Origin: a virus | DNA length: 64,000 nt | Virus record (IMG/VR): IMGVR_UViG_3300012953_000001 | Location: 64,001-128,000 of that record | Direction: 5' to 3' (one strand) | Shown: one piece after another, positions 6,202 to 53,101 of the stretch | How positions within the stretch are numbered: the stretch's first letter is position 1 | How the letters are laid out: the number at the start of each line of letters is the position of its first letter | Translations under genes and position numbers: made by a program | The notes under the pieces: generated by a model | The model's database searches: none | What the model saw: only the letters and a program-made list of their open reading frames with translations | Told to the model about the DNA's origin: nothing

Positions 6202-6251
6202 AGCTACAAAACGTGCAAAAACGACCCCCTTTTTAGGGATAAGAATAGTGA

Positions 6252-34100: not shown

Positions 34101-35350
34101 GGATTTAGATAGGCACTCTCCACTGCTCGGACACGATTTAAAAGCGCATCGTTATATGTGTTATCCCTAAACCAATGGTTGGCACCAGCCTGCCCAACAT
34201 CATCTCCCCAGTTAGGAGCGCCGCCCTTGCTGGGAATAGGGTTTAGGTTATCGTTATGCGACCATGTAAGACCGCTGCCATCTGCGAGACGGATATACTT
34301 CGCGCTTAACAGTGCTGTTTTAAGCGCATCAGGCCAATCACCGTCACCAGCAACACCACCCCCAGCGTCAGATGCGGGAGGCATCAACTTTAGTACATTG
34401 GTGAATGGTAAAATACAGGAGCCACCGAAAATTGGATGCGACTTCCAATTAGCGGTCATATAAACAAGTGGTCCTAAGTTCTCATCGTACTCAGGCTTTA
34501 CTCTTGCCTGAAGGATATCTCTCTGCATGTCTGGCTCGCCGTGGCCAACGACAGACACAGAAACAATTTCCTCATAGCTATTAAGGATCTCGGTCTCAAT
34601 CCCTCGTTTGGTGTTCAGCGAACGCTCAGACAGACTTCGGGCAGCGCGAACTAGGAACTCCTCGTTAGTCTCCTTGGTAACCCCGCCAGTCATAGCGCTA
34701 AGATTGGTTACTCTGGAGACGCCGTCTAAACCGGTCTGGTAGCGGATAGCTCCCGCTGCGATGTTCATAGACGCATTGGGCTGCTGGGAGCGGACAGGAA
34801 TATCTATGTAATACTTCCCGCCTGAACGGACCATCTCATTGGGCGCGTATGTGTACGCTTCTTCCGCAGCAAAAGTTTCTCCCTTGGCTGTGGAGAAAGT
34901 GATGGACGCATCAACGCCCACAGATCGAGCATTATTAAAGTAGACCCTAACCGTTCCTCTAGCGTAGTCGCCCCACTGTCGCTCCGAGAGGACATTAGAT
35001 AGTAAAGCGTCCATCTCGGCTTCTGTCAGCGTAACAACATCTGACAAAGACTTCTGTGTTCTTAAGAACTCAATCTCCCTCTGCAAAGGCTCAAGGATGA
35101 GCGCCAAAGGGCTAACCAGAACATCTCGTATAATTGATCCTGGGCTTTGAACGTCGAACTGTGGGTACTCATCCTGTAATCGAGAGATAATGAAGGTTTC
35201 GATGTCTACTTTGTACGGATCAGTCCCAAGCCTCTTAATGAGTGGGTCGATGACCTTAACATACATCATAGAGCCCGACTGGTCGTTAAGCGTCGGGTCG
35301 AGGTCGAGAAGTCTCTCTACTAAGAATGTTTTTAATTGATCTATAGCCAT
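28130..35350 (-). CDS. Baseplate J / gp6-like wedge protein with very large insertions
   Basis: ARGTVRVYF...ITFST...DIPVRS...NIAAGAI...VTNLSAMTGGVTKETNEEFLVRA is the Baseplate_J signature; 2406 aa. Confidence 0.85.
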   Translation of the reverse strand: MAIDQLKTFLVERLLDLDPTLNDQSGSMMYVKVIDPLIKRLGTDPYKVDIETFIISRLQDEYPQFDVQSPGSIIRDVLVSPLALILEPLQREIEFLRTQKSLSDVVTLTEAEMDALLSNVLSERQWGDYARGTVRVYFNNARSVGVDASITFSTAKGETFAAEEAYTYAPNEMVRSGGKYYIDIPVRSQQPNASMNIAAGAIRYQTGLDGVSRVTNLSAMTGGVTKETNEEFLVRAARSLSERSLNTKRGIETEILNSYEEIVSVSVVGHGEPDMQRDILQARVKPEYDENLGPLVYMTANWKSHPIFGGSCILPFTNVLKLMPPASDAGGGVAGDGDWPDALKTALLSAKYIRLADGSGLTWSHNDNLNPIPSKGGAPNWGDDVGQAGANHWFRDNTYNDALLNRVRAVESAYLNPGSDYAIYIKLKDFDIYPEPVDILGEVPAIGTLHTSDPEMGLNRRSAQGSMFKMIGEKEGSDIVLGAHLPFTDHVKTNFVPEDIPGSVVPGRDFLITWTEDSTFSQTAAAQPLGLTLPEKLQMWPLTRFYSSTELGVGRVDSFLVSKNRTVYPGKLEYNFDPNLVFSMMRERPRLYDYGTPYYTQDSQDPSLVYGGKEKEEVGRNPGCSLQVMNDLPSIIPESSSWNVLSHPAEVDLILHHTQPKWADRGVTAGQHVACTVFRESFDGKLQNVDDDMLWQGWGRVKKVGAGTPWRTRVEGLDFGPLHEYNFAQFSPGASAVIEATDVPQIPDFDVMTNPNRESTVMEVWIDGTMWQQDIDLKHSWNGGAGLASKTFTVDSALLTESAPGDYPGGIMKIICPLADPANPNVVGGFVEVDDSASIYNGGTYVGDWAAGLKAEWDAMNAAINGFEVDMQVQVVGLEVQFTITSKLWGKYGEMIAVDNDGFFCKQNAQGLPPGGNLENGTAPEMQHLIQELIDVVNGKPGYPATDFDGNPLTNYGGPTDWAAEPLGPLADGKFRVYSTVPGSQNNGTSYYFAHRDYATPAAPFTNGTWNQAMPVIPPYAAQVGNKSGELEGGFNYGFGPIVQVGCDQAVDNPATDPVLLAGNVYPEVYDEAADLDLFGHEILETVPVIDGMEARFTLTMANTPIQRGSARLHYWDINKDPDNAGTWYIFDDTGDGRLTQVWPTPIDAMAAAVGAANLQDAVNLALELEEVNGLWVEKAEIEYSQGLITLEFNANEIPQVGGSNQALNANDPNRESPAFTIGYNYYLNPFKVCWSVYRNKVETISPSGDLGVSYDDFAYAPAYKRPGMYGTDTLSTTTGHVVARGNSNYRGSRWDPDTGDNHATTYRWSENDGEVNKRRALWLRLGKGFTEAHRSLGAPASAACISGEAISMDAQGKGHAHVWPTGQYDSADQMSYAKARYTLTGSTVAGTALDLDGDGTLDDYILTRCSLPVVPGATKLKNPQDPTVTEFDLDEMSYINYTGSSGFLVPHPSGPAHYGGVEFPYANPISTNRLLNNQIVQVYAQAAEDTEDSGIVVSGIPGSTPFPDWFGGDFEIKANEVHIGGMTDVYIKATSVAEQTTAPILLQPEAIDPDALPAPTPQDPPPSHEVLVSASDGGIDAVTDPTHFDSGDLLAAIVQHYDPAPGTDISLDNLVIEILDPPSGDLQPRFFRAIHTQSSSPNGGVRIDGKFPDGAAYANLRFRALFGCTTSINKPLVVHQQGNDLVVQKNDFSVFCPSGFNFGTSPSDTSLYISIDSNTSRGEYRIIGKNLNTLVLEESIPETGSGLSYRVYSKQAAGVELPLVRLKAVSLSGGDTEGVSVPYKNPVDIISSSFAGMNDDPINEESIGEDPIGTWEPTILIGADENGNAANPKAHLVVHEGEDFVTEWNVLKYDVVRIDTLEDPDKYFYVEGFTHTDTDNAAGGTSLNTLILDRPIEGLLSSIENIRFTLGRPAIGSAEIVFRDPTYFEAGPDTIFSYKSVADKKTYQFRPSPLESALLYSTDYASSDLTINPATPGVIISEDENFFKHGISVGDRLVIKTRQFRSNLFNGQDPFLEDENLTLAGKVLTILIDGERRSVSFSGPNPTTLEQAVADINRQVGDSLKASIWEDPTNAEHYYLQIASSKAVQLLNEGTIGVLEELRCQTLDHQDNNFYPAGWELFDPYTVTAVTYVDSASTGTGNAQWRISVVNSDGQPTPVAGDPEVVFVDVLREKYQRVYPTDMVPNEYGLYSAKITLTSYDPNVKDGLVDDQQQLDVINHKSLGYEVVVKNSNYSYSLGEESSIRTTAIALSDTSGDLKDVYALPGAEVTLTYERSQPVQDVQSLLLSRDLRVVCNNPLSRHYFPAYPLAGLSYGDTSLGNSEVFGLLEDFFKTLYPNKPLELYDVAALLARKGVGYVEFPQKVAFLTHDENRVVRIVRDENIIYLNKRFHIMEDLAGIILNKAR

Positions 35351-42093: not shown

Positions 42094-42676
42094 TTTTTAC
42101 CTCTTCGCTGGGAAGGCCTGTTCCCCATCTTATAGGCCAAATACTTTTCGATAATAAGGCCCACCCGATTGGGGTCGAACTATCATACTTTGTTAATACA
42201 TCTTCGCAAGCTTCCCGTAAGCAACTAAACTCCTCAGAAGGACCCCAGTTGCCAATGTGGAAGTAAGAACCTGACTCAGACTGACAAAGACACATGGCGT
42301 GACCCATCAATTTACTATCACTCTCCCACGAAAAAATCCATATTACTGGGTTATATCTTTCTTGGATTGAGTTTGCGGCCCACACGCTAAAGTCATCACA
42401 GTCCAGAGATCCTTTAGGTTGAGTGTTACCGCTTTCTAACTCAGAAATGGCGTACTGCACCCAACCCGGTGACCCCACAGAGTCCCATAGCTCCTTCACC
42501 CCATCCTTGGTCCAAGTGAGAAGCTCCATCTTTTTTGAGGCCTCTTCCGTGGTTAAGTAGGGTCCAACAGCCATGCTCTTATACTTGTGATGCCAAATGA
42601 ACCGGTAAACACGGCTCCAAATACACCACCAGTATATTGCTACGACGTAGAATTTCTTTGCGAACCAAGCCTTCAT
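42086..42676 (-). CDS. Transglutaminase-like/papain-fold cysteine protease with an N-terminal hydrophobic segment
   Basis: LDCDDFSVWA (Cys), MGHAMCL (His) and FHIGNWG (third triad position); aromatic N-terminal helix. Confidence 0.65.
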   Translation of the reverse strand: MKAWFAKKFYVVAIYWWCIWSRVYRFIWHHKYKSMAVGPYLTTEEASKKMELLTWTKDGVKELWDSVGSPGWVQYAISELESGNTQPKGSLDCDDFSVWAANSIQERYNPVIWIFSWESDSKLMGHAMCLCQSESGSYFHIGNWGPSEEFSCLREACEDVLTKYDSSTPIGWALLSKSIWPIRWGTGLPSEEVKNG

Positions 42677-44100
42677 TAAACCACCTGATTACCGACAATT
42701 ACACCGGCCTTAGGTGCTTTTACCTTTGTCCCGTCTGTTACTCTCTTGGACTTCGCCAAAGCCGTTCTTGCCAAGGCAGACCCGGCTGCGGGTGCACCTG
42801 CTCCGCGTCTACCTCTCGTGCTCTTTAGGCCCTCATCTAGTTTGAACTGCCTTCTCACAGCCGAGGCGGATTGCTGTCCCTTGGCGTCTCTAAGAGCTTT
42901 ACCGAGACGAGACTTCTCATCAAGCTTCTTGATGTCCTTGCGGTCCTGTTTTAGCTGTTTTAGCTGTTTCGCTGTCCTAGAGCCTTTAGTTGCTCCTGTC
43001 ATAATATCCAAGTAGCTTCCGCCTCGGACTCCTGAGGACATGAGACCGCCTTTACCTTTAATCAAAGCAGAGGCTCCAGTATAACCTTTGTCGATTGCTT
43101 TTTTACCGGGACCCATCATGGACGCGGCTGCTGCGGGTATAGAGGAGAAACTAGCTCCAAGCGCGGCACCGCCGAGACCCATGTCTAAGCGTCTCGGGTC
43201 TACTAATGTTTCCCCAACGCTTTTCAAGGAATCCCACTTGCCTGGGTTTAGTGCGTAGCTTCCTCCGTAACCAGCAAGACCACCCTTGGCCCCGTAAGAC
43301 ATAAGCTTCTTACCTGAGCGAGCCAAATATCCCCCGGTTTGTGTCCAAGGCTTGTGAAGCTCATACCCCTTAGGGGCTCGGCCCTTAGCGAAAAATCCTC
43401 TAGGCCCCTTGATGAGTTGCCCAGTTTCCTTGTGTTTGTAAATGTTGCTCAGCCCACTGCCTCGCCCAAACAATTTTTGACGTACGCCCTCGCGCACAGG
43501 CTCGGTCCATCGGGCTGACCCCTTTGGAACGCTCGTTAAGGCTTCGCGTGTAAACGGTTGCATGGTCCTTGGGTCGATAAGCTTAGATGCCGCTCCACCC
43601 AGATCATCAGCTGCCTGTGGGGCTGCACGAGTAGCTCCGCTACGGGTTACCGCAGCCCTCGCTGCTGCACCGCCAGAACGAAGAGCGTTCCATCCAGCCA
43701 GTCCTGCTCTAGCCAACCAAGGCCAGACAGCTTCCTTCTCCATCAGAGCCAGCTTTTGCATCCCGGTCATTGGTACTAATGCAGAACCGACCTTAGGCAT
43801 ACCTGATCCCATACCACCCACTTGTTTAGCAGCAGCAACCCCTACAGGTTGCTTCTGTTGACGAGAGGCATTGGCAGTAAAACGCTTGATCAGCGATTTT
43901 CGCATAGCGCCTGCGGCCCAACCAGTCTGCATTTGTGCATTGTTAGACCCACCCTGGGTCGCGCCACCTGTAGGGTTAAGTGGTCCTGGCTCTGGAGCAG
44001 GAGCACCTGCTTGGCCACCAACGGCTGGTGCGGCTGCGATCTTTGCTGTGTACCGAAGAATCTCTAGAGCAGCGCCCTTATCAAAGTCTGTATTACGCAT
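42676..44100 (-). CDS. Basic KxA-motif protein (putative internal virion/ejection protein)
   Basis: AKIA, MQKLA and MEKEA motifs; Gly-zipper segments; RGGSYLDIM. Confidence 0.6.
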   Translation of the reverse strand: MRNTDFDKGAALEILRYTAKIAAAPAVGGQAGAPAPEPGPLNPTGGATQGGSNNAQMQTGWAAGAMRKSLIKRFTANASRQQKQPVGVAAAKQVGGMGSGMPKVGSALVPMTGMQKLALMEKEAVWPWLARAGLAGWNALRSGGAAARAAVTRSGATRAAPQAADDLGGAASKLIDPRTMQPFTREALTSVPKGSARWTEPVREGVRQKLFGRGSGLSNIYKHKETGQLIKGPRGFFAKGRAPKGYELHKPWTQTGGYLARSGKKLMSYGAKGGLAGYGGSYALNPGKWDSLKSVGETLVDPRRLDMGLGGAALGASFSSIPAAAASMMGPGKKAIDKGYTGASALIKGKGGLMSSGVRGGSYLDIMTGATKGSRTAKQLKQLKQDRKDIKKLDEKSRLGKALRDAKGQQSASAVRRQFKLDEGLKSTRGRRGAGAPAAGSALARTALAKSKRVTDGTKVKAPKAGVIVGNQVV

Positions 44101-46073
44101 TATAAAGTCCTCTTGGGTGCTGCCACGATATTGGGAGTTAAAATATCAAACGGGTCATCTGCACCAGATAGTATTGTCAGTAAATTGGTCGGCCCTTCGC
44201 TACTAGGCACAGTAATCCTGCGTCTGAGTGATAGCGGGGCGATAGATACTTCTACCTGTATCCCCTGCACTAAAGAGAACTCAACGTACCCGTTAGAATC
44301 AGTCTTATAAGTTCTCTGCGAGTCGAAAACGCCAGTCCCAGAAAATAATTCTGGTCGGTGCACTAGTCCGACATGAACTGTCGCATTCCTCACTGGTGTC
44401 CCGTCCATATGGTAAAGCTGTGCGAACAATGTGCACATGTCTGCGGGCGCGGCAGAGGCAGTTACTGTGGGAGAAAACTCCTCAGTTATTAGTTGAAATG
44501 CCTGCGTATCTGTCCCTACAGAAGGATCTGGAAGTGAGTCTTGTCCCGGAATACCTTTGAACTTTACTGGGCTTAGAAGGCTGTCTGCCTCCAAGGTGCT
44601 CGAAACCTCTACTGTCATTTCAAAGTTATTGGTTGTGTAGACAACCCCAGCCTTGGTTAAAGAGAAAACATACTTCCCTGGTGGCACTTCTAAACGTAAA
44701 AAGCCGGTAACATCAGTGACACCCTGCGTTATCTGCACACCAGCTTCAGAACTTACGGTTACTGTGGTTCCTATGTGCGGCCCGGTATTCGGAGCAGAAA
44801 GCTTCCCAACAGTAATTAAGATAGTCTCTTTGCCTACTGCGGGAGTAATCAAGTAATCAGTTACGTAAGCTTGTACATTGTTATTGAACCAAACAATGAA
44901 GACTTCCTGCGCGGTGTTAAACGTCAGGTCCTGGAGTACGTACCCACCATAGGCAGCAGAGTAAAATGCCTGCACAGAGGTTCCGTCTGAGCCGAGAGGA
45001 ATAATATTTCCTCCCTGTGAGCCAAACCCTGTGATGCCTAGCTTCGCCAAGAGACTAGCCGTCCCTGCTTGGAGATCTAATTGGCTAGAGTCTCCTACTG
45101 CCCCTGCTGTCGCATTAAATACCAAATTATTCGTGGACGACTCTTGATCAAGAGTAATACGGTCGCCTGCTGCACCGTCAGTAATCGTTGTCTCAACAAG
45201 AACCTTTAGCTCAACAAAGGTAACGGACTCGCTGCTCAACACATTGTTTGCTGCTGGGGGAGAAACGTCAGTAGCCTCTGAGAGGCCGGTAATAGCGGAG
45301 AAATTGCCCTGCATATTACTAAGTGTAATTGTAGAACTTGAGCCTAAGCTGTCAGTTACAATCTCAATCTCACCAGCAGCGTCACGGGCGTATGCACCTT
45401 TTAACTGTGCGTTAAGAGCCGCAAGGTACGCAGCCTGATTGTTTGCTACACCATCTAGGTCAATACTTCGTACTGTGCCCCCGTCAATGCTGTAGTCCGC
45501 TGTATCCCCAAGTGCGCCTGCTGCGTACGTTGCCATAGTTCCTGTGGCTACCGCAGGAGCACATAAAAAAGTAAGGGTCTGCGGTCCTGTCGCGTTCGTG
45601 TCCGGGAGGACTTGGAATGTCAAAAAGTCTCCATCATCAACGGAGAAAGTTGTTACTGATTGGCCCCCAGTAAACGACGCGTACGTCTTGTCCGCAAGGG
45701 ATACGCCAGAGCCGTTGTAGAGATGCGCAGTAATAATCTCGTTGGGACCGCCAACTATATTATCCTCTAATACAACGTCTACTTCATCCCCGATTGCAAA
45801 ATCAGAGATTGGGTTCTGCCCCACGTCTAGCGTGCCATGCAAAACAACAGAGTCATTATACTTGTAGAATACGTTATGCTGCCCCAGGGTAAGCGGGGTG
45901 TAGGGGTCACTTAGGAAAAGATTCGGGGCTTCGATGACTTGAGAAAAACTAAGCACAGCCACTTCCGAACCAGTAGCATCTAACACCTGCGCCTCTAATA
46001 ACCCGAGGTCAACTACTACTGATTGGCTATCGAAGAACGGTAGTGTCCTTGCTTTTTGTATCTGTGCTTTCAT
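44100..46073 (-). CDS. Virion structural protein (beta-rich, sheath-insert-like and carboxypeptidase-regulatory-like modules)
   Basis: 657 aa acidic, with YSIDGG...LAALNAQL...IEIVTDSLG, GVTDVTGFLRLEVPPGKY and TDSNGYVEFSLVQG. Confidence 0.6.
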   Translation of the reverse strand: MKAQIQKARTLPFFDSQSVVVDLGLLEAQVLDATGSEVAVLSFSQVIEAPNLFLSDPYTPLTLGQHNVFYKYNDSVVLHGTLDVGQNPISDFAIGDEVDVVLEDNIVGGPNEIITAHLYNGSGVSLADKTYASFTGGQSVTTFSVDDGDFLTFQVLPDTNATGPQTLTFLCAPAVATGTMATYAAGALGDTADYSIDGGTVRSIDLDGVANNQAAYLAALNAQLKGAYARDAAGEIEIVTDSLGSSSTITLSNMQGNFSAITGLSEATDVSPPAANNVLSSESVTFVELKVLVETTITDGAAGDRITLDQESSTNNLVFNATAGAVGDSSQLDLQAGTASLLAKLGITGFGSQGGNIIPLGSDGTSVQAFYSAAYGGYVLQDLTFNTAQEVFIVWFNNNVQAYVTDYLITPAVGKETILITVGKLSAPNTGPHIGTTVTVSSEAGVQITQGVTDVTGFLRLEVPPGKYVFSLTKAGVVYTTNNFEMTVEVSSTLEADSLLSPVKFKGIPGQDSLPDPSVGTDTQAFQLITEEFSPTVTASAAPADMCTLFAQLYHMDGTPVRNATVHVGLVHRPELFSGTGVFDSQRTYKTDSNGYVEFSLVQGIQVEVSIAPLSLRRRITVPSSEGPTNLLTILSGADDPFDILTPNIVAAPKRTL

Positions 46074-46090
46074 CTATTGGCCCACCTTAC

Positions 46091-46333
46091 TCAACTCTTT
46101 GGCTCGGAGATGCCAATCAGTTTTTTAACGTTGTCTATTACCACAACGCTATCATACCGCTTTTCCTTCTTCTCTGGACTACCTAGGCTACTTTCAAGCA
46201 CCGACTTTAAGAAAGTTCTTTCCGTTACCAAGCGGAGCTTCTCCGCTGTAACGTACTCCTTCACTTGATCCCTTAGTTTCTCTAGGACCTCTTTCTTATC
46301 TTCGGGCTTGTCAATAACACTCTCGATAGCCAT
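46091..46333 (-). CDS. Hypothetical protein
   Basis: 80-aa helical ORF with an upstream GGAG, co-oriented with neighbours. Confidence 0.55.
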   Translation of the reverse strand: MAIESVIDKPEDKKEVLEKLRDQVKEYVTAEKLRLVTERTFLKSVLESSLGSPEKKEKRYDSVVVIDNVKKLIGISEPKS

Positions 46334-46345
46334 GCCAGTGTCTCC

Positions 46346-47242
46346 TTAGTCTTTGAGCAACGCATAGCCACCAAGTCCAAGTGCCGCAGGAACAGCTACC
46401 GCTTTGGCGGTGTCCATCATCTTTTTACGCTTGGCCCAGTTAGAGGCGAGTCTAGTCGCTCCACCAAGAAGCGCCGCAGCACCACCACCCTCTAATGCGG
46501 CCTTAGCCACTTCGGGTCCGTAAGCTTTTAAGTAGTCCATCGGAGCATCTGCAAACGATTTGCCTGATCTCTTCAGTGCGCGAGCTTTCCGAAGAAACTC
46601 AACCTCTTGGGCTGATCTATCGAAGGCACCCGGCACGAAATCCTTGCCCTCTTTCTTGGCCTGCTCCTTGGCAATGCGGTTCGTGTTGTATTTCTTTCCT
46701 AGAGCCTTACGTGCAGCTAGTCCTTCGGCCCCCTCACCAGCAAGAGTACGTAACTGGCGAAGTCTGTTAAGACCCATACCAAGACCACCAACGCCGCCAG
46801 CGCCCGCTGCGGTTCTACCCACGCCTCCCCATAAACTAAATGGGTTTTTGAAGGCTTGCTTCTCCATCCGATCACCGTAAGTGTTTTCGTAGAGAACAGC
46901 CGATGCCTGGGCAAGCCCACTATGCACGTAATGTGCAGAACTCTTTTTTGCCATGAACGGCGCTGTAGGTGCAGCGAGGGGTGCAGCGAGGGGTGCAGCG
47001 GGAGGTCTTCGGGCCATTGAGCCCATCCCGAACGGTTGCCTACGGGGTTTAGGTGCCCTAAGTGCCCCTGGGCCCATCTGCTTCATATTGTTGATGGCCT
47101 TTGCCACGTTCGGTGAGGGTTTGCGAGCGGGCGCGGCTCCGTACTGGCCCAGAACCGCAACCTTCTCAAGCATTGAGGCTACGCCTGCCGCTTTTTCCAT
47201 ACTCTTCATCGAGGTATCTAATCGTTTTAAGTTGTCCATCAT
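46346..47242 (-). CDS. Basic KxA-motif protein with a C-terminal Gly-zipper helix
   Basis: MEKAA, LEKVA and MEKQA motifs; ends AVAVPAALGLGGYALLKD. Confidence 0.6.
   Translation of the reverse strand: MMDNLKRLDTSMKSMEKAAGVASMLEKVAVLGQYGAAPARKPSPNVAKAINNMKQMGPGALRAPKPRRQPFGMGSMARRPPAAPLAAPLAAPTAPFMAKKSSAHYVHSGLAQASAVLYENTYGDRMEKQAFKNPFSLWGGVGRTAAGAGGVGGLGMGLNRLRQLRTLAGEGAEGLAARKALGKKYNTNRIAKEQAKKEGKDFVPGAFDRSAQEVEFLRKARALKRSGKSFADAPMDYLKAYGPEVAKAALEGGGAAALLGGATRLASNWAKRKKMMDTAKAVAVPAALGLGGYALLKD
46968..47000. repeat. 12-bp tandem repeat (about 2.7 copies) encoding AAPLAAPLAAP
   Basis: GGTGCAGCGAGG repeated in frame within the 46346-47242 gene. Confidence 0.8.
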
Positions 47243-48112
47243 TTACTCCGTAAGATGCCTCTGAAGTTTCTTTTTAATAGTGTTCTTCAGGCGACTAACT
47301 TGGTAATCGGGAATTTTCATTGCACGAGCAATAGTTCCCGTAGAGGACGTTTGAGGTTTGCCGTGTCCGGTCAAATACTCATATACCTCTCGTTCATTAC
47401 CCGTTAGTTCATACTTAAATAGGCGCAAAACCTCTTCAGATTTTGAAGGTGTTAACGCATACGGGTCCTCTTCGAACCCTTGAGAGAGCAAGTCGTTCCG
47501 TAGCTCGGCTTCCATCCTTCCGGTTTCAGCCATTGACCACCCGAGTCGCTCAGAAATTTCTTTAGTCAGAGGTGTCCTACCAAGATCTTCGGTAAGTTCA
47601 TCTCTGGCAGTTGTGAACAACTTGATCTTATAAACCCGATTCTCGGGGATACGACCAATATTCTGGTTCTCAACAATAAATCGTTTGGCCTTGTCTAAAT
47701 AACGAAAGACATAGGTACCGAGAGACCCCTTAGAGGGATCATATGAGCGTAAGGCATCTACAAAGCGTAGCTGAAACTCTGACTCAATAGCTGAGTCGGG
47801 AATCATCTTTACCTTACCCTTGTAGACATTGACCTTAGACCTGATCATTGGACGGAAGCTTTTGAGGAGAGGTCGGAGGTCTTCCGGCCTCTCCCCATTG
47901 GCTTTCCAATTATTCCACATCGCAAGCTCTCGACTCTTCTTATCATCTAAGTTGTCTAGAGCATTGAATGTGGCAAGGTTAGTCTCCGTGGCTTCCTCAG
48001 CATCCCTGGTGTGCTGTTTTACGGATACAACTTTCCCATTAGTTCGCCGTGGGTGTGCTCTTACTTGAGTACTCCCTGCGTACTTGAGAAATTCGGATAC
48101 TGGATCAGCCAC
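47243..48112 (-). CDS. Sigma-70 family RNA polymerase sigma factor (SigB/FliA-like) with an atypical N-terminal tag
   Basis: Region 2 (LLKSFRPMI...FVDALRSYDPSKGSLGTYV), RIPE, region 3 (LGRTPLTKEISERLGWS) and region 4 (TIARAMKIPDYQVSRLKNTIKKKL). GTG 48112 is better spaced from AAAGGT than ATG 48121. Confidence 0.9.
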   Translation of the reverse strand: MADPVSEFLKYAGSTQVRAHPRRTNGKVVSVKQHTRDAEEATETNLATFNALDNLDDKKSRELAMWNNWKANGERPEDLRPLLKSFRPMIRSKVNVYKGKVKMIPDSAIESEFQLRFVDALRSYDPSKGSLGTYVFRYLDKAKRFIVENQNIGRIPENRVYKIKLFTTARDELTEDLGRTPLTKEISERLGWSMAETGRMEAELRNDLLSQGFEEDPYALTPSKSEEVLRLFKYELTGNEREVYEYLTGHGKPQTSSTGTIARAMKIPDYQVSRLKNTIKKKLQRHLTE

Positions 48113-48125
48113 GGACAACATACCT

Positions 48126-48818
48126 TTAGTCTAATGCTTTACCGATGCCATACGCGGTACCACCACCGATGAGACCTTGTCCCATTGGGCTTTTAGCACC
48201 TCGCCAAGCGGCCTTACCAGTTGCTTTTGCACCACGACCAGCAGCCTGCGCTCCCAAAGTACCGTAGTACTTGCCTTGGAATCCTCGCCACTTAGCCTGA
48301 TCGCCTACGGCCTTACCAGCACGCTGCAAAGCTCCACCGGCCTGACGCATCTTAGCCTTAGTAGCGCTAGCGCCTGCTTGACCCATTGCTTTGGTCTTAG
48401 CAGCACCAGCCTGTGCGCCACCCTTAGTTGCCTGCCAAGCCTTACTGACTCTAGCTGCACCAGCCTGCCCTGCGGAACGAGCCTTCAAGGCAGCAGCGAG
48501 ACCAGCTTTACGAGTCGCAGCTAAACCTGCAACAGCCTTTGCTCGGCCTGCGGCCATGGCTTTTCCACCAGCAGCCATGCCTCGTTGAGCCAGTGCGCTG
48601 GTGCCTCTTCCAAGACCCTTCCAAGCAGCAAGCTCGGCTCTACCGGCGCGTCCTGCACCGCTAGCAATAGCTTTACCAGCACGGCCAGCGAGTGCACCTG
48701 CACCACGAGCACCACGGCCAAGAGCCATAAGACCCGCAAGCGAAGCCTGCTTGTCCATGCCATGCGACGACTGCCGCAGGACTAATTCAAGATTGTGTTT
48801 ACGATTTGGTTCTAACAT
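48126..48818 (-). CDS. Ala/Gly/Lys/Arg-rich KxA-motif protein
   Basis: MDKQA, then low-complexity GKA/AGR repeats; C-terminal GLIGGGTAYGIG. Confidence 0.6.
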   Translation of the reverse strand: MLEPNRKHNLELVLRQSSHGMDKQASLAGLMALGRGARGAGALAGRAGKAIASGAGRAGRAELAAWKGLGRGTSALAQRGMAAGGKAMAAGRAKAVAGLAATRKAGLAAALKARSAGQAGAARVSKAWQATKGGAQAGAAKTKAMGQAGASATKAKMRQAGGALQRAGKAVGDQAKWRGFQGKYYGTLGAQAAGRGAKATGKAAWRGAKSPMGQGLIGGGTAYGIGKALD

Positions 48819-48847
48819 TGTTTCTAACCCCTTTTGGTTAATATAGA

Positions 48848-49186
48848 TTATTTGTTGGAGAGAAGTGCTCCTAAACCAGCAGCGCCAGCCGCCACACCGC
48901 CCCCAACCATGAGGGGCTTTTTGTGCTTCTTAAGCACGGAAGTCAATTTTGACTTAGGTAGCAGTCCTTTAGCTGCTGATCGAGATTTTAGCACCTTTGC
49001 TAATAAAGCGGCACCACCCACACCAGCGGCAGCACCTCCGATAATCTTCTTATGCTTTTTTAAGACCTCCAACAAGGACTTAAGCCTTGCGGATTTTGCG
49101 CCTTCCGAAGCGACTGTCTTCAGGGCGCTGCTTTTAGCGGCTAATTTAACCCGCAAAAGCTCTTTAGTATTACTGTTCATACACAT
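48848..49186 (-). CDS. Small basic protein with a duplicated VLKKHKK-Gly-zipper unit
   Basis: VLKKHKKIIGGAAAGVGGAALL and VLKKHKKPLMVGGGVAAGAAGLGALL; N-terminal RVKLAA; GGGAG RBS. Confidence 0.65.
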   Translation of the reverse strand: MCMNSNTKELLRVKLAAKSSALKTVASEGAKSARLKSLLEVLKKHKKIIGGAAAGVGGAALLAKVLKSRSAAKGLLPKSKLTSVLKKHKKPLMVGGGVAAGAAGLGALLSNK

Positions 49187-49247
49187 ACTCCCTTATCTAG
49201 TCACTACGGCCTGTATTATGCAACAATATGTCATGACAACATAGACC

Positions 49248-49484
49248 TTACCTTGATGCAGCAACAATCTTTTTCAATGAGATTCCTTTGGTGACCAACA
49301 ATACTCTCTTGTTAGCACCTACTCCGAAAGTCTCCTCTACCACATCATCGTTATTCCCCAAACTGATTGTATCCGAAGATACCTCATCTGTAGAACCATG
49401 GCTAATAGGCATTTTCGTCGGTTTCATAGCTTTGGCTAAGAGGTCAACTTTCTCATTATCATCGGTAATACTGTTATCTTCCAT
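49248..49484 (-). CDS. Hypothetical protein
   Basis: 78-aa co-oriented ORF filling the gap downstream of the hub gene. Confidence 0.5.
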   Translation of the reverse strand: MEDNSITDDNEKVDLLAKAMKPTKMPISHGSTDEVSSDTISLGNNDDVVEETFGVGANKRVLLVTKGISLKKIVAASR

Positions 49485-49495
49485 GTTGTGTAGCC

Positions 49496-52400
49496 TTACT
49501 CAGAGGATTTAGGGGGTTTGTGATCATACCCTTTTAGTTCTGCTCGCTTCTTTTCGCCAGCATCGTCGTCCATTTCTTCAACCAGACTGCCCCCGACATC
49601 TCGGAACCCTTGTTTTCTTAACCCAGCCAAGTACTTTCGCACACGATTATAGCGGTGCCACCTGGGGTCTATATCTTTATCGAGATCTCTAGGGTTCATT
49701 GGGTCCTTTGCCAGTACCGGCAAAATCGTTGGGACAATCTCTTTTCCTTCCCAATCATTCATCTGCGTATAAGGGCCAAACGCATCTCCATGGAAGCCCC
49801 GAGTAGGTATTCCTTGGCGATAATCGTCGTCCACAAACGCCTGTTGGTCGTATACTTTAGGGGCGAAGCCTGGGTTCATATTACCCATGACTTCTACCAT
49901 GTTAGCGTATTTTCTATCAATATAACCATCGATGAATAAATCAGTCGCTGCCCCTATCTCTTTTAGGGCTAACCATGTATCCGCAAGCTGGTCCGCAGCA
50001 GCCTCAGTTGTTTTCGCTGCTTGGGTAAGGTCTTCGGGGATGCGTAACTCAGTGTACTCAACCCCGCCGCCTCTATCGATTCCTGAGTCGGGCATCTTGA
50101 AAGGAACGGAAACAGTGGCGATACCACTCTCATTGCCACTAATCTCCGCGCCAGTGGTTACGCTGCGGGTAACAGGCTTTGGTTTATCTGCCCCAGGCCG
50201 GAACATGATCGGTGGGTTGTCCAGCACAGACTCGCACCCATACATGGGCATGTAGTACTTGGTACCGATGCTGCCTGGATGATAGATCGGAGAAAGCCAG
50301 GGTGGCATAAGGGTTGATTCAAAAGTAAAGCTAACCTTGCCTACAGCGGGATAGGATACATACCGATAAACATCGACCTCAACGGCATTGTAGCCAGACC
50401 CGTCTATGGCTGAAGCGTTTGGTTTTCCGTCAGCGCCAAGCAGTACGCGTGTTCCAGCGTTGTCATCCCCTTGGGGGGCTTTATTCGAGAAGTTATAATT
50501 ACTGCCTGTTTTACGGGCTTTAATTAGATATCGTCGGCCCTTCTTATACTCATTAGGACCTAAGACACGATTTGCTGCATCAGGCGATGATTGAATAACC
50601 ACGCCCCCGGGAACATCTGGATTAGTATTAGTAATAAAAGCCGTGTGTGGTTTACCGTCTTTAGGCGTAACTGGCTTTTTACCATGCCGCGTGTAGGATC
50701 TCTCAGTAGTGATCTTGCCATCCTTGGTGTCACCAAATAATCCTGCGTCTTCCCTGTGCCCACGGACTTTTATCAATTGAATAAGTGTCTGTGCGCCACC
50801 AGAGACATCGATTGTATGAACGATCTCTGCGATCTGTCCGACGTAGTGCGTTCCTTTAGGTGGGGCAGAGAGATTAACCGTATCTTTGCCTCTGATCTTA
50901 TCCTTGTTGTCTCCCTCGCCACCAACCGCATGAAGAATTCGACTGTCTTGCCTAACTGGATCTAACACAAGGCATGGCATCCCAGGGACAAGCTGTGGTG
51001 AATACCTAGCTGTGATCGCCATAGTCCTTGTGCCGTATCTCTGGGCAAAGAACATGTAGTTCGCCGCTCTTTGTAGATGCGGTTGTGGTGAGAACTTTGC
51101 CTCCCCTGATACAGACCCTTTGTCAAAGCCCTGCAAAGACCCCTTCTCTTCTTTCCACTTCTTCTTGGCCTCTTTCATTTCCTTCTTATGCATCTTCTTG
51201 AAAACGTCTCCGTCCCCAAGACCCATGATGCTAGGAATGATGCCCGTGTACTTCTCGTGCTTCATAACGAAGCCGCCGCCTTTTTTAACGGCCTGTGCGC
51301 AGTCTGTTACTGTAGGGCCTGCCAACATTTCCGCATTAGGTGAAAAGTAGCAATCCTTCTTGTTTCTTCCGCTCGAAGTCTTTCCATGAAGCCATAGTCG
51401 AGTAATCTCACTCATCCAATTTCGACTAAAGCGAATTGCCTGGATGTGGTCTGGAAACAAGACATTGCACCTTGGCGGGGGGCACATGTACACGTCCGGG
51501 TGGAAATAGGTAGTGTAGAGTCTGTCTCTAAGCTTTACCTGCTCTCGCTTAGGCACAACAGTTCTACCAGTAGCGGACCCAATGCCTTTCAAGTAGCACT
51601 CAAGCTTACGACGTATGTAAAAAAGGTTGTCCGAGTCGTGCTTGAGCTTGGCCATATTCTTATTTACTGCCGCGTAGTCATTTCCATGCGCGGCCTGCGC
51701 TCCCAAAAGTTGGGAGGCACGTATCCTAGCTTCCGCTAGACATTTATAGGCTTGCTGAATTCTATCCCCACGCTTTCTTAGCGTCTTGTCTCCTGTAGTG
51801 GCAGCTTTTTCATTTAGCTCCACTTTGATGGCCTGCCCCTTCAGGAAGTAAGGGTCTTTGGTAATGTCTGTAATGTCTGTTCGATCAGTTCCGCTAAGAC
51901 CACCTGGGTTAGACATGATGCCTGTGCCTGTATTGGTCTCATCAAACTCTTTGTGCTTGTCAGATCTTAGTTTCCCATCTTCCGCACGTTTGTACGTGTC
52001 GTTGGCGATCTGAGAGGACTCCCCAGGCTTTCGGTCGATTGTTCGACGATCCTTAAGAGCGTCTGATGTCTGCTTATTTCCTAGAGAGTACGTCTTTTTA
52101 GCGGCCTTCTCGTCAGCACTTAGCTTCCCGTTGTGCGTAAACTTCGCCTTGCCGCTCAGAACATATTCCGTGGTAATTACCGCAGAGTCAGAAAAGTAAG
52201 GGGGTGCAAGCTGTGAGTGCCATGTGTGGTAAATCTTACCGCATAGCATGTTTATGAACTGCATAAAGGTCGCAGTGTACTTCACCTGCTTGGATACTTT
52301 TCTCAAGTAACGCTTAAACGACTTACTGTTCGTAAACGTAGCGGAAGTATCGTCGTCTGTTGACGCCCCAATCTGCCTAGTCAGTTTTAGACGTATCTCT

Positions 52401-53101
52401 GCCTGACTAAGAAAGTCATTACACCCATGAAACTTCTTTTTAGCATCAGGAGAGTAACAACCGGTCGCTGCCTCAAGTACGGAAAAGATACCACCCATTA
52501 ACCCTGGGACATTGGGCATCGCTGAGGGCTTTGCCTGTAGTAATTTAATCAGGTCCCCAGAGCTATCAACCTTACTCTTTCCTCTGTAAAGCTGAGTCGC
52601 GCCCGAGAACACTGCTGTCTTATAGGAGTTGAACACGCTGGAACGCTTCTTACCCCAGTAGACTCGACAGTTGTCCCAGTAGGATGTGTGGTCTTGGCAT
52701 GCCAGTATGATGTCGCGTCGGCCACCTATCTTTGAAAAAGAGTAGCCCATGACTTCACCGACAAATAGCAACTTCCAGTTGTGCCAGTTGTCCTTATCTC
52801 GCAACAGGGTGGCGACACCCTTTTCCTTCGCCTTAGCGAGGTCTTCACCAGACTCTTGCCAATTAGTTTTTGTGGCATCTTTGCCTCGATAAGTACCAAG
52901 CTCCCAGCGAGAATCGAAGTAGAACACATGCACAAGCGTTCTTGGGAGTAAACTATGTACCTCATCACAGCTAGGAATAGTAATCGTAGCTGTGGCAGGC
53001 TGATTCACCCCACACGAGAGCTTCAAAGAGGTAACATCTACCTCAATACCCTCCATAAACAAGCGGACATCTAGCCGCCTTGCGTGTGTAGTTGACTCCA
53101 T
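49496..53101 (-). CDS. Baseplate hub protein (gp27/Mu gp44-like) with long insertions
   Basis: VRLFMEGIEV...PATATITIP...LLPRTLVHVF...LFVGEVMG...LACQD and PQLVPGMPCLV are hub-type beta motifs; 1201 aa. Confidence 0.65.
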   Translation of the reverse strand: MESTTHARRLDVRLFMEGIEVDVTSLKLSCGVNQPATATITIPSCDEVHSLLPRTLVHVFYFDSRWELGTYRGKDATKTNWQESGEDLAKAKEKGVATLLRDKDNWHNWKLLFVGEVMGYSFSKIGGRRDIILACQDHTSYWDNCRVYWGKKRSSVFNSYKTAVFSGATQLYRGKSKVDSSGDLIKLLQAKPSAMPNVPGLMGGIFSVLEAATGCYSPDAKKKFHGCNDFLSQAEIRLKLTRQIGASTDDDTSATFTNSKSFKRYLRKVSKQVKYTATFMQFINMLCGKIYHTWHSQLAPPYFSDSAVITTEYVLSGKAKFTHNGKLSADEKAAKKTYSLGNKQTSDALKDRRTIDRKPGESSQIANDTYKRAEDGKLRSDKHKEFDETNTGTGIMSNPGGLSGTDRTDITDITKDPYFLKGQAIKVELNEKAATTGDKTLRKRGDRIQQAYKCLAEARIRASQLLGAQAAHGNDYAAVNKNMAKLKHDSDNLFYIRRKLECYLKGIGSATGRTVVPKREQVKLRDRLYTTYFHPDVYMCPPPRCNVLFPDHIQAIRFSRNWMSEITRLWLHGKTSSGRNKKDCYFSPNAEMLAGPTVTDCAQAVKKGGGFVMKHEKYTGIIPSIMGLGDGDVFKKMHKKEMKEAKKKWKEEKGSLQGFDKGSVSGEAKFSPQPHLQRAANYMFFAQRYGTRTMAITARYSPQLVPGMPCLVLDPVRQDSRILHAVGGEGDNKDKIRGKDTVNLSAPPKGTHYVGQIAEIVHTIDVSGGAQTLIQLIKVRGHREDAGLFGDTKDGKITTERSYTRHGKKPVTPKDGKPHTAFITNTNPDVPGGVVIQSSPDAANRVLGPNEYKKGRRYLIKARKTGSNYNFSNKAPQGDDNAGTRVLLGADGKPNASAIDGSGYNAVEVDVYRYVSYPAVGKVSFTFESTLMPPWLSPIYHPGSIGTKYYMPMYGCESVLDNPPIMFRPGADKPKPVTRSVTTGAEISGNESGIATVSVPFKMPDSGIDRGGGVEYTELRIPEDLTQAAKTTEAAADQLADTWLALKEIGAATDLFIDGYIDRKYANMVEVMGNMNPGFAPKVYDQQAFVDDDYRQGIPTRGFHGDAFGPYTQMNDWEGKEIVPTILPVLAKDPMNPRDLDKDIDPRWHRYNRVRKYLAGLRKQGFRDVGGSLVEEMDDDAGEKKRAELKGYDHKPPKSSE

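What the first reader, a model, noticed from the sequence alone, without database searches (positions are those of the whole stretch)
47243..48112. Sigma factor that appears tagged for virion packaging
A complete SigB/FliA-like sigma (regions 2-4) sits in the middle of the cargo cluster. It has a ~55-aa non-sigma N-terminus: EFLKYA (compare LEKYA in the leaders), then VRAHPRRTNGKVVSVKQHTR, a twin V-x-x-H-x-R hairpin of a kind I associate with phage virion/DNA-bound proteins. Characterised phage sigmas (T4 gp55, SPO1 gp28/34) are made during infection for middle or late genes. Inference: this one is packaged and injected to redirect host RNAP at once, an alternative to carrying a virion RNAP.
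Basis: partly seen in the sequence, partly recalled or inferred. Interest (0 to 1): 0.85.

Follow-up and report, generated by a model that had tools for sequence, protein, structure and literature searches.

The report
Tagged sigma factor for phage's own polymerase
A 178-kb marine phage encodes a genuine sigma factor among its tail and internal-protein genes, carrying a conserved N-terminal tag-plus-hairpin module; it most likely travels in the virion with the phage's own single-chain RNA polymerase to start infection, rather than hijacking the host enzyme.

Summary
The ORF is window 47243-48121, minus strand, 292 aa. It is a divergent but clear sigma-70-family protein (regions 1.2 to 4.2) with a roughly 60-aa non-sigma N-terminus.

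That N-terminus is conserved. It has a leader helix (NPVxDFLKYA), a four-strand twin hairpin (V-R-A-H-x-R-R ... V-x-V-x-x-H-x-R) and an acidic linker of variable length.

The same complete genome encodes a 2,090-aa fused beta-beta' RNA polymerase and no alpha subunit. All 10 near-complete relatives that have this sigma also have that polymerase. So the sigma is most likely the specificity subunit of the phage enzyme, not an alternative to a virion polymerase.

Packaging is plausible. In the cultured relative Salmonella phage Arash, the homologue gp10 was found in sucrose-gradient-purified virions (100% coverage, 24 unique peptides), together with beta and beta' (PMC10585845).

New here:
- A Phi-x-K-x-A leader recurs across the sigma family.
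- A similar twin hairpin sits as a 34-aa insertion in the polymerase, and the sigma hairpin is found only in phages that have it.

No cleavage, packaging or activity was measured for this phage. Earlier agents of this scan had already noted the polymerase, the leader tag and the promoter motif on this genome.

The parts
47243..48121 (-). Sigma-70-family gene, 292 aa (P0001)
48077..48121 (-). Leader, residues 1-15 (MLSVADPVSEFLKYA). Predicted helix 7-16. Contains the Phi-x-K-x-A motif F11-L12-K13-Y14-A15, which resembles the cargo leader MNALEKYAAK.
48002..48073 (-). Twin-hairpin mini-domain, residues 17-40: four short beta strands with V20, R25, V34 and R39 invariant.
   Evidence: pLDDT 93-96; pLDDT 84-86 when folded alone.
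47942..48001 (-). Acidic linker, residues 41-60. Its length is variable; some orthologues carry insertions of up to about 70 residues.
47669..47941 (-). Sigma regions 1.2 to 2.4, residues 61-151 (ELxLWxxWK helix; TYVFRYLDKAKRFIVENQNIGRIPE).
47504..47644 (-). Sigma region 3, residues 160-206.
   Evidence: PF04539 is precomputed in many homologues.
47249..47503 (-). Region 3.2 linker (residues 207-226, low pLDDT) and region 4 helix-turn-helix (residues 227-291).
48126..48818 (-). Upstream neighbour, 230 aa, Ala/Gly/Lys-rich, with MDKQAS at residues 21-26. No family match.
46346..47242 (-). Downstream neighbour, 298 aa, with MEKAAG and LEKVAV near the N-terminus. No family match.
49496..53101 (-). 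1,201-aa protein starting '...RLFMEGIEVDV', homologous at its N-terminus to Arash gp8 (virion cell-wall hydrolase). The sigma gene lies downstream of this gene in the relatives' loci read in full, down to 33% sigma identity: directly after it in the distant ones, and with one to three small genes between in the close clade, as in this window.
6214..6243 (+). Example of the candidate bipartite promoter, TGCAAAA-N16-GGGATAAG.

Best explanation
The gene encodes the promoter-specificity (sigma) subunit of the phage's own RNA polymerase, a single 2,090-aa beta-beta' chain with no alpha subunit.

The gene sits inside the tail/internal-protein operon, so it is made late together with virion proteins. 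The sigma is loaded into the particle with the polymerase and enters the next cell with the DNA. There the pre-made holoenzyme fires the bipartite TGCAAAA-N16-GGnATAAG promoters of the non-structural genes without needing host RNAP.

The N-terminal module has separable parts:
1. A leader helix with a Phi-x-K-x-A motif, of the same kind as the leader on the phage's putative cargo proteins. It is probably a loading signal, a protease site, or both.
2. A basic twin-hairpin mini-domain that has a look-alike inserted in the beta part of the polymerase. It probably tethers sigma to the core or to a shared partner.
3. An acidic linker.

Shown here: sigma identity, conservation of the module, the phage polymerase, synteny, the promoter motif, and co-distribution of the two hairpins. 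Taken from a paper: presence of the homologue in Arash virion preparations. Inferred: late expression, packaging in this phage, partnership with the phage core, and the roles of the leader and the hairpin.
For: - Sigma fold and family.
- The own genome is a complete 178,429-bp record with terminal repeats. One open frame of about 2,100 aa holds both Rpb2_6 (1e-59) and Rpb1_2 (2e-22).
- No second sigma and no alpha subunit were detected.
- All 10 relatives that are at least 90% complete and carry this sigma also carry the polymerase.
- Arash virions purified on a sucrose gradient contain gp10 sigma (100% coverage, 24 unique peptides, 467 spectra). Beta was the most-detected protein (3,516 spectra) and beta' had 1,210 (PMC10585845).
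- The sigma gene lies downstream of the gp8-like gene and upstream of baseplate genes in the loci read in full, down to 33% identity: directly after it in the distant relatives, with one to three small genes between in the close clade.
- Eight GGnATAAG sites have GCA[AC]A exactly 15-17 nt upstream, all on the plus strand. The GGnATAAG sites that lie between genes mostly sit just upstream of plus-strand, mostly small, genes, and none precedes the structural block that holds the sigma gene.
- Phi-x-K-x-A is present in 47 of 94 distant sigma homologues that have an N-terminal extension, against 11.0 +/- 2.9 in shuffles (maximum 22 in 1,000).
- The same kind of N-terminal motif occurs in 24 of 69 structural-block genes against 18 of 125 others (Fisher p = 0.0017).
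- The twin hairpin occurs only in sigma and in polymerase residues 853-880 (profile E = 2.8e-4 in the proteome).
- The polymerase hairpin is a 34-aa insertion present in 11 genomes and absent in 18. The sigma hairpin is present in 10 of those 11 and in none of the 18.
Against: - Nothing was measured for this phage: no virion proteome, no transcript timing, no cleavage.
- The Arash proteome lists 116 of about 270 proteins, including ribonucleotide reductases. Its authors themselves allow carry-over of abundant proteins.
- Arash sigma lacks the leader and the hairpin, so these are not required for presence in virions.
- The leader does not track the cargo-leader system cleanly. G027 has MNNIEKIA-type leaders but a leaderless sigma, and the G018 and G019 sigmas start at the hairpin with no leader.
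- The polymerase itself has no N-terminal leader.
- The hairpin co-distribution is one clade, so it may be one event. G029 has the polymerase insertion without the sigma hairpin.
- I found no promoter class for the structural operon, so what transcribes the late genes is unknown.
- Sigma binding to the phage core is not tested.
Confidence: 0.55

Rival explanations
1. One reading: the sigma is packaged and injected to redirect the host RNA polymerase core, replacing the need for a virion polymerase.
For: It is a full sigma-70-family protein, most similar to group-3 sigmas. Phage sigmas in polymerase-less jumbo phages are thought to use host core (PMC13282480). Nothing here excludes binding to the host core as well.
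Against: The phage has its own beta-beta' polymerase. All 10 near-complete relatives with this sigma have it too. In Arash the polymerase is among the most abundant virion proteins. A clade-specific hairpin is shared between sigma and the phage polymerase. The relatives include phages isolated on Salmonella or from an oyster/seawater mix, plus marine metagenome contigs spanning 42-65% GC, which fits a self-contained enzyme.
Confidence: 0.1
2. It is an ordinary intracellular sigma of the phage polymerase that is not a functional virion component. Its detection in Arash particles is carry-over, and the N-terminal module is regulatory: a region-1.1-like autoinhibitory or core-tethering element, or the binding site of an unknown regulator.
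For: The Arash virion list is very long and includes metabolic enzymes. The basic hairpin followed by an acidic linker of variable length recalls the acidic region 1.1 and linker of primary sigmas (my own knowledge). The hairpin look-alike in the polymerase fits a sigma-core contact without any packaging. About 90% of the distant representatives listed have no hairpin, and many of them, like Arash gp10, have no leader either.
Against: Arash gp10 gave 24 unique peptides for 234 aa, against 11 and 2 for the two reductases, and spectra on the scale of the portal. Both the sigma gene and the polymerase gene sit in virion-gene blocks and lack the early-type promoter. If the only sigma is made from a late operon, an injected polymerase could not start specifically without injected sigma (inference). 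The leader motif is enriched in structural-block proteins.
Confidence: 0.25
3. It is a late-gene sigma, like T4 gp55 or SPO1 gp34, that switches the phage polymerase to structural-gene promoters. The GGnATAAG promoters would then be read by something else.
For: The gene lies in the structural block. No promoter class was found for the late genes, so its targets there cannot be excluded.
Against: It is the only sigma detected. The only repeated bipartite sigma-type motif lies before non-structural plus-strand genes. A sigma needed to turn on the operon that encodes it would have to be supplied first.
Confidence: 0.08

Closest known systems
Salmonella phage Arash gp10 'RNA polymerase sigma factor' (OQ632216; PMC10585845), and the unnamed homologues in Vibrio phages D69, D148 and D181
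   Same: It belongs to the same sigma family (33.5% identity over residues 64-229, E 5e-21). The gene position is the same, downstream of the gp8-like virion protein. The phage also encodes beta and beta'. gp10 was detected in purified virions.
   Different: Arash gp10 is 234 aa and starts at the sigma core, with no leader, no hairpin and no acidic linker. Arash beta and beta' are separate genes, and its beta lacks the hairpin insertion. The paper lists gp10 in a table and draws no mechanism from it.
Group-3 bacterial sigma factors (FliA/sigma-28, SigB/SigF/SigG)
   Same: Domain order sigma2-sigma3-sigma4 without region 1.1. Region 2.3 lacks the Trp-Trp pair of primary sigmas, as in FliA and SigF (my own knowledge). 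The candidate promoter TGCAAAA-N16-GGnATAAG resembles the sigma-28 consensus TAAA-N15-GCCGATAA (my own knowledge).
   Different: Scores are far below every curated cut-off (27.9 bits against 234 for TIGR02980). The presumed partner is a phage single-chain beta-beta' without alpha. It carries an extra N-terminal leader and hairpin.
Virion RNA polymerases: N4 vRNAP and the phiKZ/AR9 virion multisubunit polymerases
   Same: The logic is the same: the transcription enzyme is made late, packaged, and injected to read early promoters independently of the host.
   Different: N4 vRNAP is a single-subunit T7-like enzyme. phiKZ-type polymerases have no sequence homologue of sigma; gp68 and gp226 are only structurally or functionally sigma-like (PMC13282480). 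Here the factor is a recognisable sigma-70-family protein, and there is one polymerase, not a virion and non-virion pair.
T4 capsid-targeting sequences on internal proteins and Alt (my own knowledge; also raised by earlier scan notes)
   Same: A short N-terminal leader is shared by several unrelated proteins encoded among virion genes. In T4 one such cargo protein, Alt, acts on transcription after injection.
   Different: The motif here is Phi-x-K-x-A, not T4's L/I-x-E. No cleavage or targeting has been shown. The sigma's leader (DFLKYA) is similar to the cargo leader (ALEKYAAK) but not identical.
Pro-sigma-E and pro-sigma-K of Bacillus subtilis (my own knowledge)
   Same: They are sigma factors made with an N-terminal pro-sequence that a dedicated protease removes at a defined stage.
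   Different: There is no sequence relation between the pro-sequences, the proteases are different, and processing here is only conjecture.

Membership tests
Sigma-70 family | Sigma2 domain (regions 2.1-2.4) that binds the beta' clamp helices and the -10 element | tested here: met
   The 100-sequence profile aligns to regions 2.x of SigA/RpoS at E 5e-17. Pfam Sigma70_r2 matches below threshold (17.8 bits). The AlphaFold helices superpose on sigma chains. Binding itself was not tested.
Sigma-70 family | Sigma3 domain | tested here: met
   Pfam Sigma70_r3 scores E 6e-4 (20.3 bits, below the 25.3 cut-off). PF04539 is precomputed for most homologues. The domain is aligned.
Sigma-70 family | Sigma4 helix-turn-helix (region 4.2) for the -35 element | tested here: met
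   The profile alignment runs through region 4.2 of SigA/RpoS. TIGR02980 is matched to its last position. The model has helices 227-291 at pLDDT above 95. Pfam r4 alone gives no hit.
Sigma-70 family | Passes a curated family threshold | tested here: not met
   All Pfam and NCBIfam scores are below their cut-offs. Membership rests on the profile, PHROG and fold evidence, so this is a very divergent branch.
Sigma-70 family | Forms a holoenzyme with an RNAP core and directs promoter-specific initiation | not testable with these tools
   Only indirect evidence: co-occurrence with the phage polymerase in 10 of 10 near-complete genomes and a bipartite promoter-like motif.
Virion-packaged transcription machinery (N4 / phiKZ type) | The protein is physically present in purified virions | not testable with these tools
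   Published MS exists for the Arash homologue only. That virion list is long and may include carry-over.
Virion-packaged transcription machinery (N4 / phiKZ type) | The gene is expressed late with the structural genes | tested here: inconclusive
   The gene is embedded, with 4-nt and 0-nt gaps, in a minus-strand structural block of about 60 kb that has a single intergenic gap of 40 nt or more and no early-type promoter. There are no expression data.
T4-type capsid-targeted cargo | An N-terminal leader shared with other virion-module proteins | tested here: met
   Sigma F11-L-K-Y-A15 compares with MNALEKYAAK on at least six proteins. The motif is enriched in the structural block and in the sigma family. 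The similarity is at motif level, not identity.
T4-type capsid-targeted cargo | The leader is removed by the prohead protease | not testable with these tools
   There are no peptide data. Indirect hint: the G018 and G019 sigmas begin 5-8 residues before the hairpin, where a K-x-A cut would leave the own protein.
T4-type capsid-targeted cargo | The leader is required for loading | tested here: inconclusive
   Arash sigma has no leader yet is in the virion preparation. G027 has cargo leaders but a leaderless sigma.

The most novel reading that the evidence does not exclude
The sigma is made as a pro-sigma that doubles as the loading adaptor for the polymerase.

- The Phi-x-K-x-A leader takes it into the prohead and is cut off there by the head protease, after K13-Y14-A15.
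- The twin hairpin pairs with the look-alike hairpin inserted in the beta part of the single-chain polymerase.
- A ready-made, stoichiometric holoenzyme is therefore packaged and injected.
- Uncut sigma made late stays inactive, so early promoters remain off.

This would be the first canonical sigma-70-family protein shown to be a processed virion component.
Probability: 0.2. Interest if true: 0.85.

Novelty: new variant of a known kind. Interest (0 to 1): 0.6.

Why it matters
A recent review draws a dichotomy: phages with multisubunit polymerases have no sigma homologue, and phages with sigma homologues lack a polymerase and use host core (PMC13282480). This large, mostly uncultured family (1,193 sequence clusters at E <= 0.001) has both.

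A two-protein holoenzyme (one beta-beta' chain plus one sigma) would be a minimal bacterial-type transcription machine that is easy to reconstitute. If it is indeed packaged, it gives a third solution to host-independent early transcription, beside N4 and phiKZ.

The separable leader and the hairpin shared with the polymerase are concrete, testable handles on how such cargo is loaded and kept together.

Tried and rejected
- Megablast of 20 kb of the window against cultured phages gave no match.
- PHROGs and Pfam on the neighbouring genes gave almost nothing.
- I looked for the N-terminal module in other protein types and found none. A word-based search of residues 3-44 among longer proteins gave no hit. 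The ESM Atlas on residues 1-45 gave no usable hit. The module folded alone and compared with 48,161 PDB representatives reached at best Z 2.5, with no meaningful match.
- I tested whether the sigma leader type co-varies with the cargo leader in eight relatives' genomes plus the own genome. The result was not clean. Genomes of the close clade share MNALEKYAAK cargo leaders and FLK[YF]A sigma leaders, but G027 has cargo leaders with a leaderless sigma, and G018 and G019 have the hairpin without a leader.
- I looked for a shared promoter upstream of the minus-strand (structural) units and saw none.
IMG/VR loci were used instead.
- The full 100-sequence alignment was too diverse for the search for related loci.
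- I considered and rejected an antisense ORF (48834-49244, plus strand) as a gene. It lies opposite an Ala/Gly-rich minus-strand ORF, where antisense frames stay open.

Full report
**What is there**

The finding lies on an ORF at window 47243-48121, minus strand, 292 aa. The gene is packed into a long run of minus-strand genes. The upstream gene ends 4 nt before it, and the next gene starts right after its stop.

**Is it a sigma factor?**

Curated models match only below their thresholds:
- Pfam Sigma70_r3 at 20.3 bits and r2 at 17.8 bits.
- TIGR02980 SigB/F/G at E 1.7e-6, 27.9 bits against a 234-bit cut-off.

Independent lines agree that it is one:
- phrog_351 'RNA polymerase sigma factor' scores 1.3e-11.
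- A profile of 100 homologues hits solved SigA, RpoS, SigB, SigF and FliA chains, best E 5e-17. The alignment runs from region 1.2/2.1 to the end of 4.2.
- An AlphaFold model has mean pLDDT 90.5 and the expected helical domains.
- Every top Foldseek match, in the PDB and in the viral library, is a sigma factor.

It is therefore a real but very divergent sigma-70-family protein with group-3 architecture. It is the only one I could detect in the genome, although the Pfam six-frame scans do not even recover this one.

**The N-terminus**

The first 60 or so residues are not sigma. In 24 orthologues down to 54% identity, P7, K13, V20 and R25 are invariant, and F11, A15, H23, V34 and R39 are nearly so. 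The consensus is NP(V/I)xDFLKYA-xxTxVRAHxRRxxGKxVxVxxHxR. An acidic linker follows, and its length varies by tens of residues.

AlphaFold predicts a short helix (residues 7-16) and then four beta strands (17-40). The strands reach pLDDT 93-96 in the full model and 84-86 when the N-terminus is folded alone. It therefore behaves as a small independent domain.

In these distant sequences (35-47% identity) V, R, V and R remain invariant. A K-x-A-A motif sits just before the hairpin.

**The leader**

In this phage, [LFIMV]-x-K-[YF]-A occurs nine times in 56,240 residues. Seven lie at or near the start of the protein: six copies of (M)NALEKYAAK and the sigma. One more is a second, internal copy of the leader.

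Among representatives of the sigma family that have an N-terminal extension of at least 12 aa, 47 of 94 carry Phi-x-K-x-A. Shuffling gives 11.0 +/- 2.9, with a maximum of 22 in 1,000. Examples are LDKLAAKK, LEKFAAKK and NPLEEFLKTAA.

In the own genome, an N-terminal motif of this kind is found in 24 of 69 genes of the structural blocks against 18 of 125 others (p = 0.0017).

So the leader is a real, recurrent feature that the sigma shares with virion-module proteins. It is also separable:
- The sigmas of G018 and G019 start directly at the hairpin.
- G027 has MNNIEKIA leaders on small proteins but a leaderless sigma.
- Arash sigma has neither leader nor hairpin.

**Genomic context changes the interpretation**

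The window is bases 64001-128000 of a complete 178,429-bp virus record with direct terminal repeats. At 43300-49572 the genome encodes one 2,090-aa frame holding both the beta (Rpb2_6, 1e-59) and the beta' (Rpb1_2, 2e-22) modules. No alpha subunit is detectable.

This places the phage in the lineage of Caudovirales with a multisubunit polymerase described by Weinheimer and Aylward (PMC7481178). That paper does not mention a sigma.

All 10 relatives that are at least 90% complete and carry this sigma also carry the polymerase. The natural partner of the sigma is therefore the phage enzyme.

**Is it packaged?**

The only cultured relatives are Salmonella phage Arash and three Vibrio phages.

In Arash, gp10 (33.5% identity to the core of this sigma) lies downstream of gp8, a 1,165-aa virion cell-wall hydrolase, with only the small gp9 between them. 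The window's 1,201-aa protein is homologous to gp8 at its N-terminus.

The Arash paper analysed particles purified on a sucrose gradient. It found gp10 with 100% coverage, 24 unique peptides and 467 spectra. Beta was the most-detected protein (3,516 spectra) and beta' had 1,210. That list holds 116 proteins, including reductases, and the authors allow carry-over. Still, gp10's peptide density is far above that of the reductases.

The position of the sigma gene, downstream of the gp8-like gene and ahead of baseplate genes, is kept in the loci I read in full, down to 33% sigma identity. In the distant relatives it follows that gene directly. In the close clade, as in this window, one to three small genes lie between.

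**Promoters**

GGnATAAG occurs 38 times. Those copies that lie between genes mostly sit just upstream of plus-strand, mostly small, genes. Eight of the 38 have GCA[AC]A exactly 15-17 nt upstream, all on the plus strand. By comparison, about 6% of random 40-mers contain that word anywhere.

This gives a bipartite TGCAAAA-N16-GGnATAAG element, which suits a sigma with both sigma4 and sigma2/3.

None of these sites precedes the structural block that holds the sigma gene. That block has a single gap of 40 nt or more. I saw no shared late promoter.

If the only sigma and the only polymerase are both made from virion-gene blocks, an injected polymerase could start specifically only with an injected sigma. 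This is inference, not data.

**A second copy of the hairpin**

The profile of the sigma N-terminus hits one other protein in the proteome: the polymerase, at residues 853-880 (IVRVKAHTRVIQTKAGPKTVHVKEHERD; E 2.8e-4). A twin-hairpin pattern matches only these two places.

Alignment of 29 polymerases shows this is a 34-aa insertion in the beta module, between GEPYAVENFQ and SETRELFDP.
- The insertion is present in 11 genomes and absent in 18.
- The sigma hairpin is present in 10 of the 11. The exception is G029.
- The sigma hairpin is present in none of the 18.

The carriers form one branch, so this may be a single history rather than repeated co-gain.

A sigma-core tether, or a partner shared by both hairpins, is my preferred reading. 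It cannot be tested with single-chain folding.

**Comparison and verdict**

The thing works like a virion transcription kit of the N4 or phiKZ kind, but with a recognisable sigma-70-family subunit. The phiKZ-type enzymes lack one. The leader resembles T4 capsid-targeting sequences in logic, and pro-sigma-E/K in the idea of a processed sigma. Neither processing nor targeting is shown.

I rate this as a new variant of a known kind. Confidence in the composite explanation is about 0.55.

Earlier agents of this scan, working on the same genome, had already noted the fused polymerase, the likely packaging, the K-x-A code, the MNALEKYAAK leader and the promoter motif. I re-derived the parts that I use here.

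Noticed in passing
Own genome G000 46.9-47.0 kb (outside the window); loci L026-L042 and L082-L111: The fused polymerase carries a 34-aa twin-hairpin insertion (residues about 851-884) in its beta module. It resembles the sigma N-terminal hairpin. It is present in 11 of the 29 relatives compared, and in that sample the sigma hairpin is seen only in genomes that have it.
   Followed up: yes
window 6214-6243 (+), and genome 56.5, 131.8, 134.8, 142.1, 143.3, 162.7 and 166.2 kb: The GGnATAAG motif has a -35-like partner, (T)GCA[AC]A, at a fixed spacing of 15-17 nt. All eight bipartite copies are on the plus strand.
   Followed up: partly
L052 (G018) and L054 (G019), sigma genes: These sigma orthologues keep the twin hairpin but start 5-8 residues before it, with no leader. 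That is about where a cut after K-x-A would leave the window's protein.
   Followed up: partly
window 42676-44100, 46346-47242, 48126-48818, 48848-49186 (all minus strand): The genes around the sigma encode Ala/Gly/Lys-rich, low-complexity basic proteins with no family match. Each has a K-x-A motif 10-30 residues from the start. The positions of these motifs (for example TKQAA, DKQAS) are kept in relatives.
   Followed up: partly
window 48834-49244 (+) against 48848-49186 (-): A 136-aa plus-strand ORF overlaps the 112-aa Ala/Gly-rich minus-strand ORF, and a similar antisense ORF appears in relative L006. It is probably an artefact of GCN/GGN-rich coding sequence, not a gene.
   Followed up: no
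Proteins P0130 (442 aa), P0121 (482 aa), P0195 (728 aa): Some family members are much longer than the usual 230-300 aa. In P0130 the alignment shows a C-terminal extension of about 150 residues beyond region 4. The others were not inspected.
   Followed up: no
window 28130-35350 (-): The 2,406-aa protein has a Baseplate_J match near its N-terminus (E 1.8e-5). This marks the giant genes downstream of the sigma as baseplate/tail-fibre genes rather than capsid cargo.
   Followed up: no
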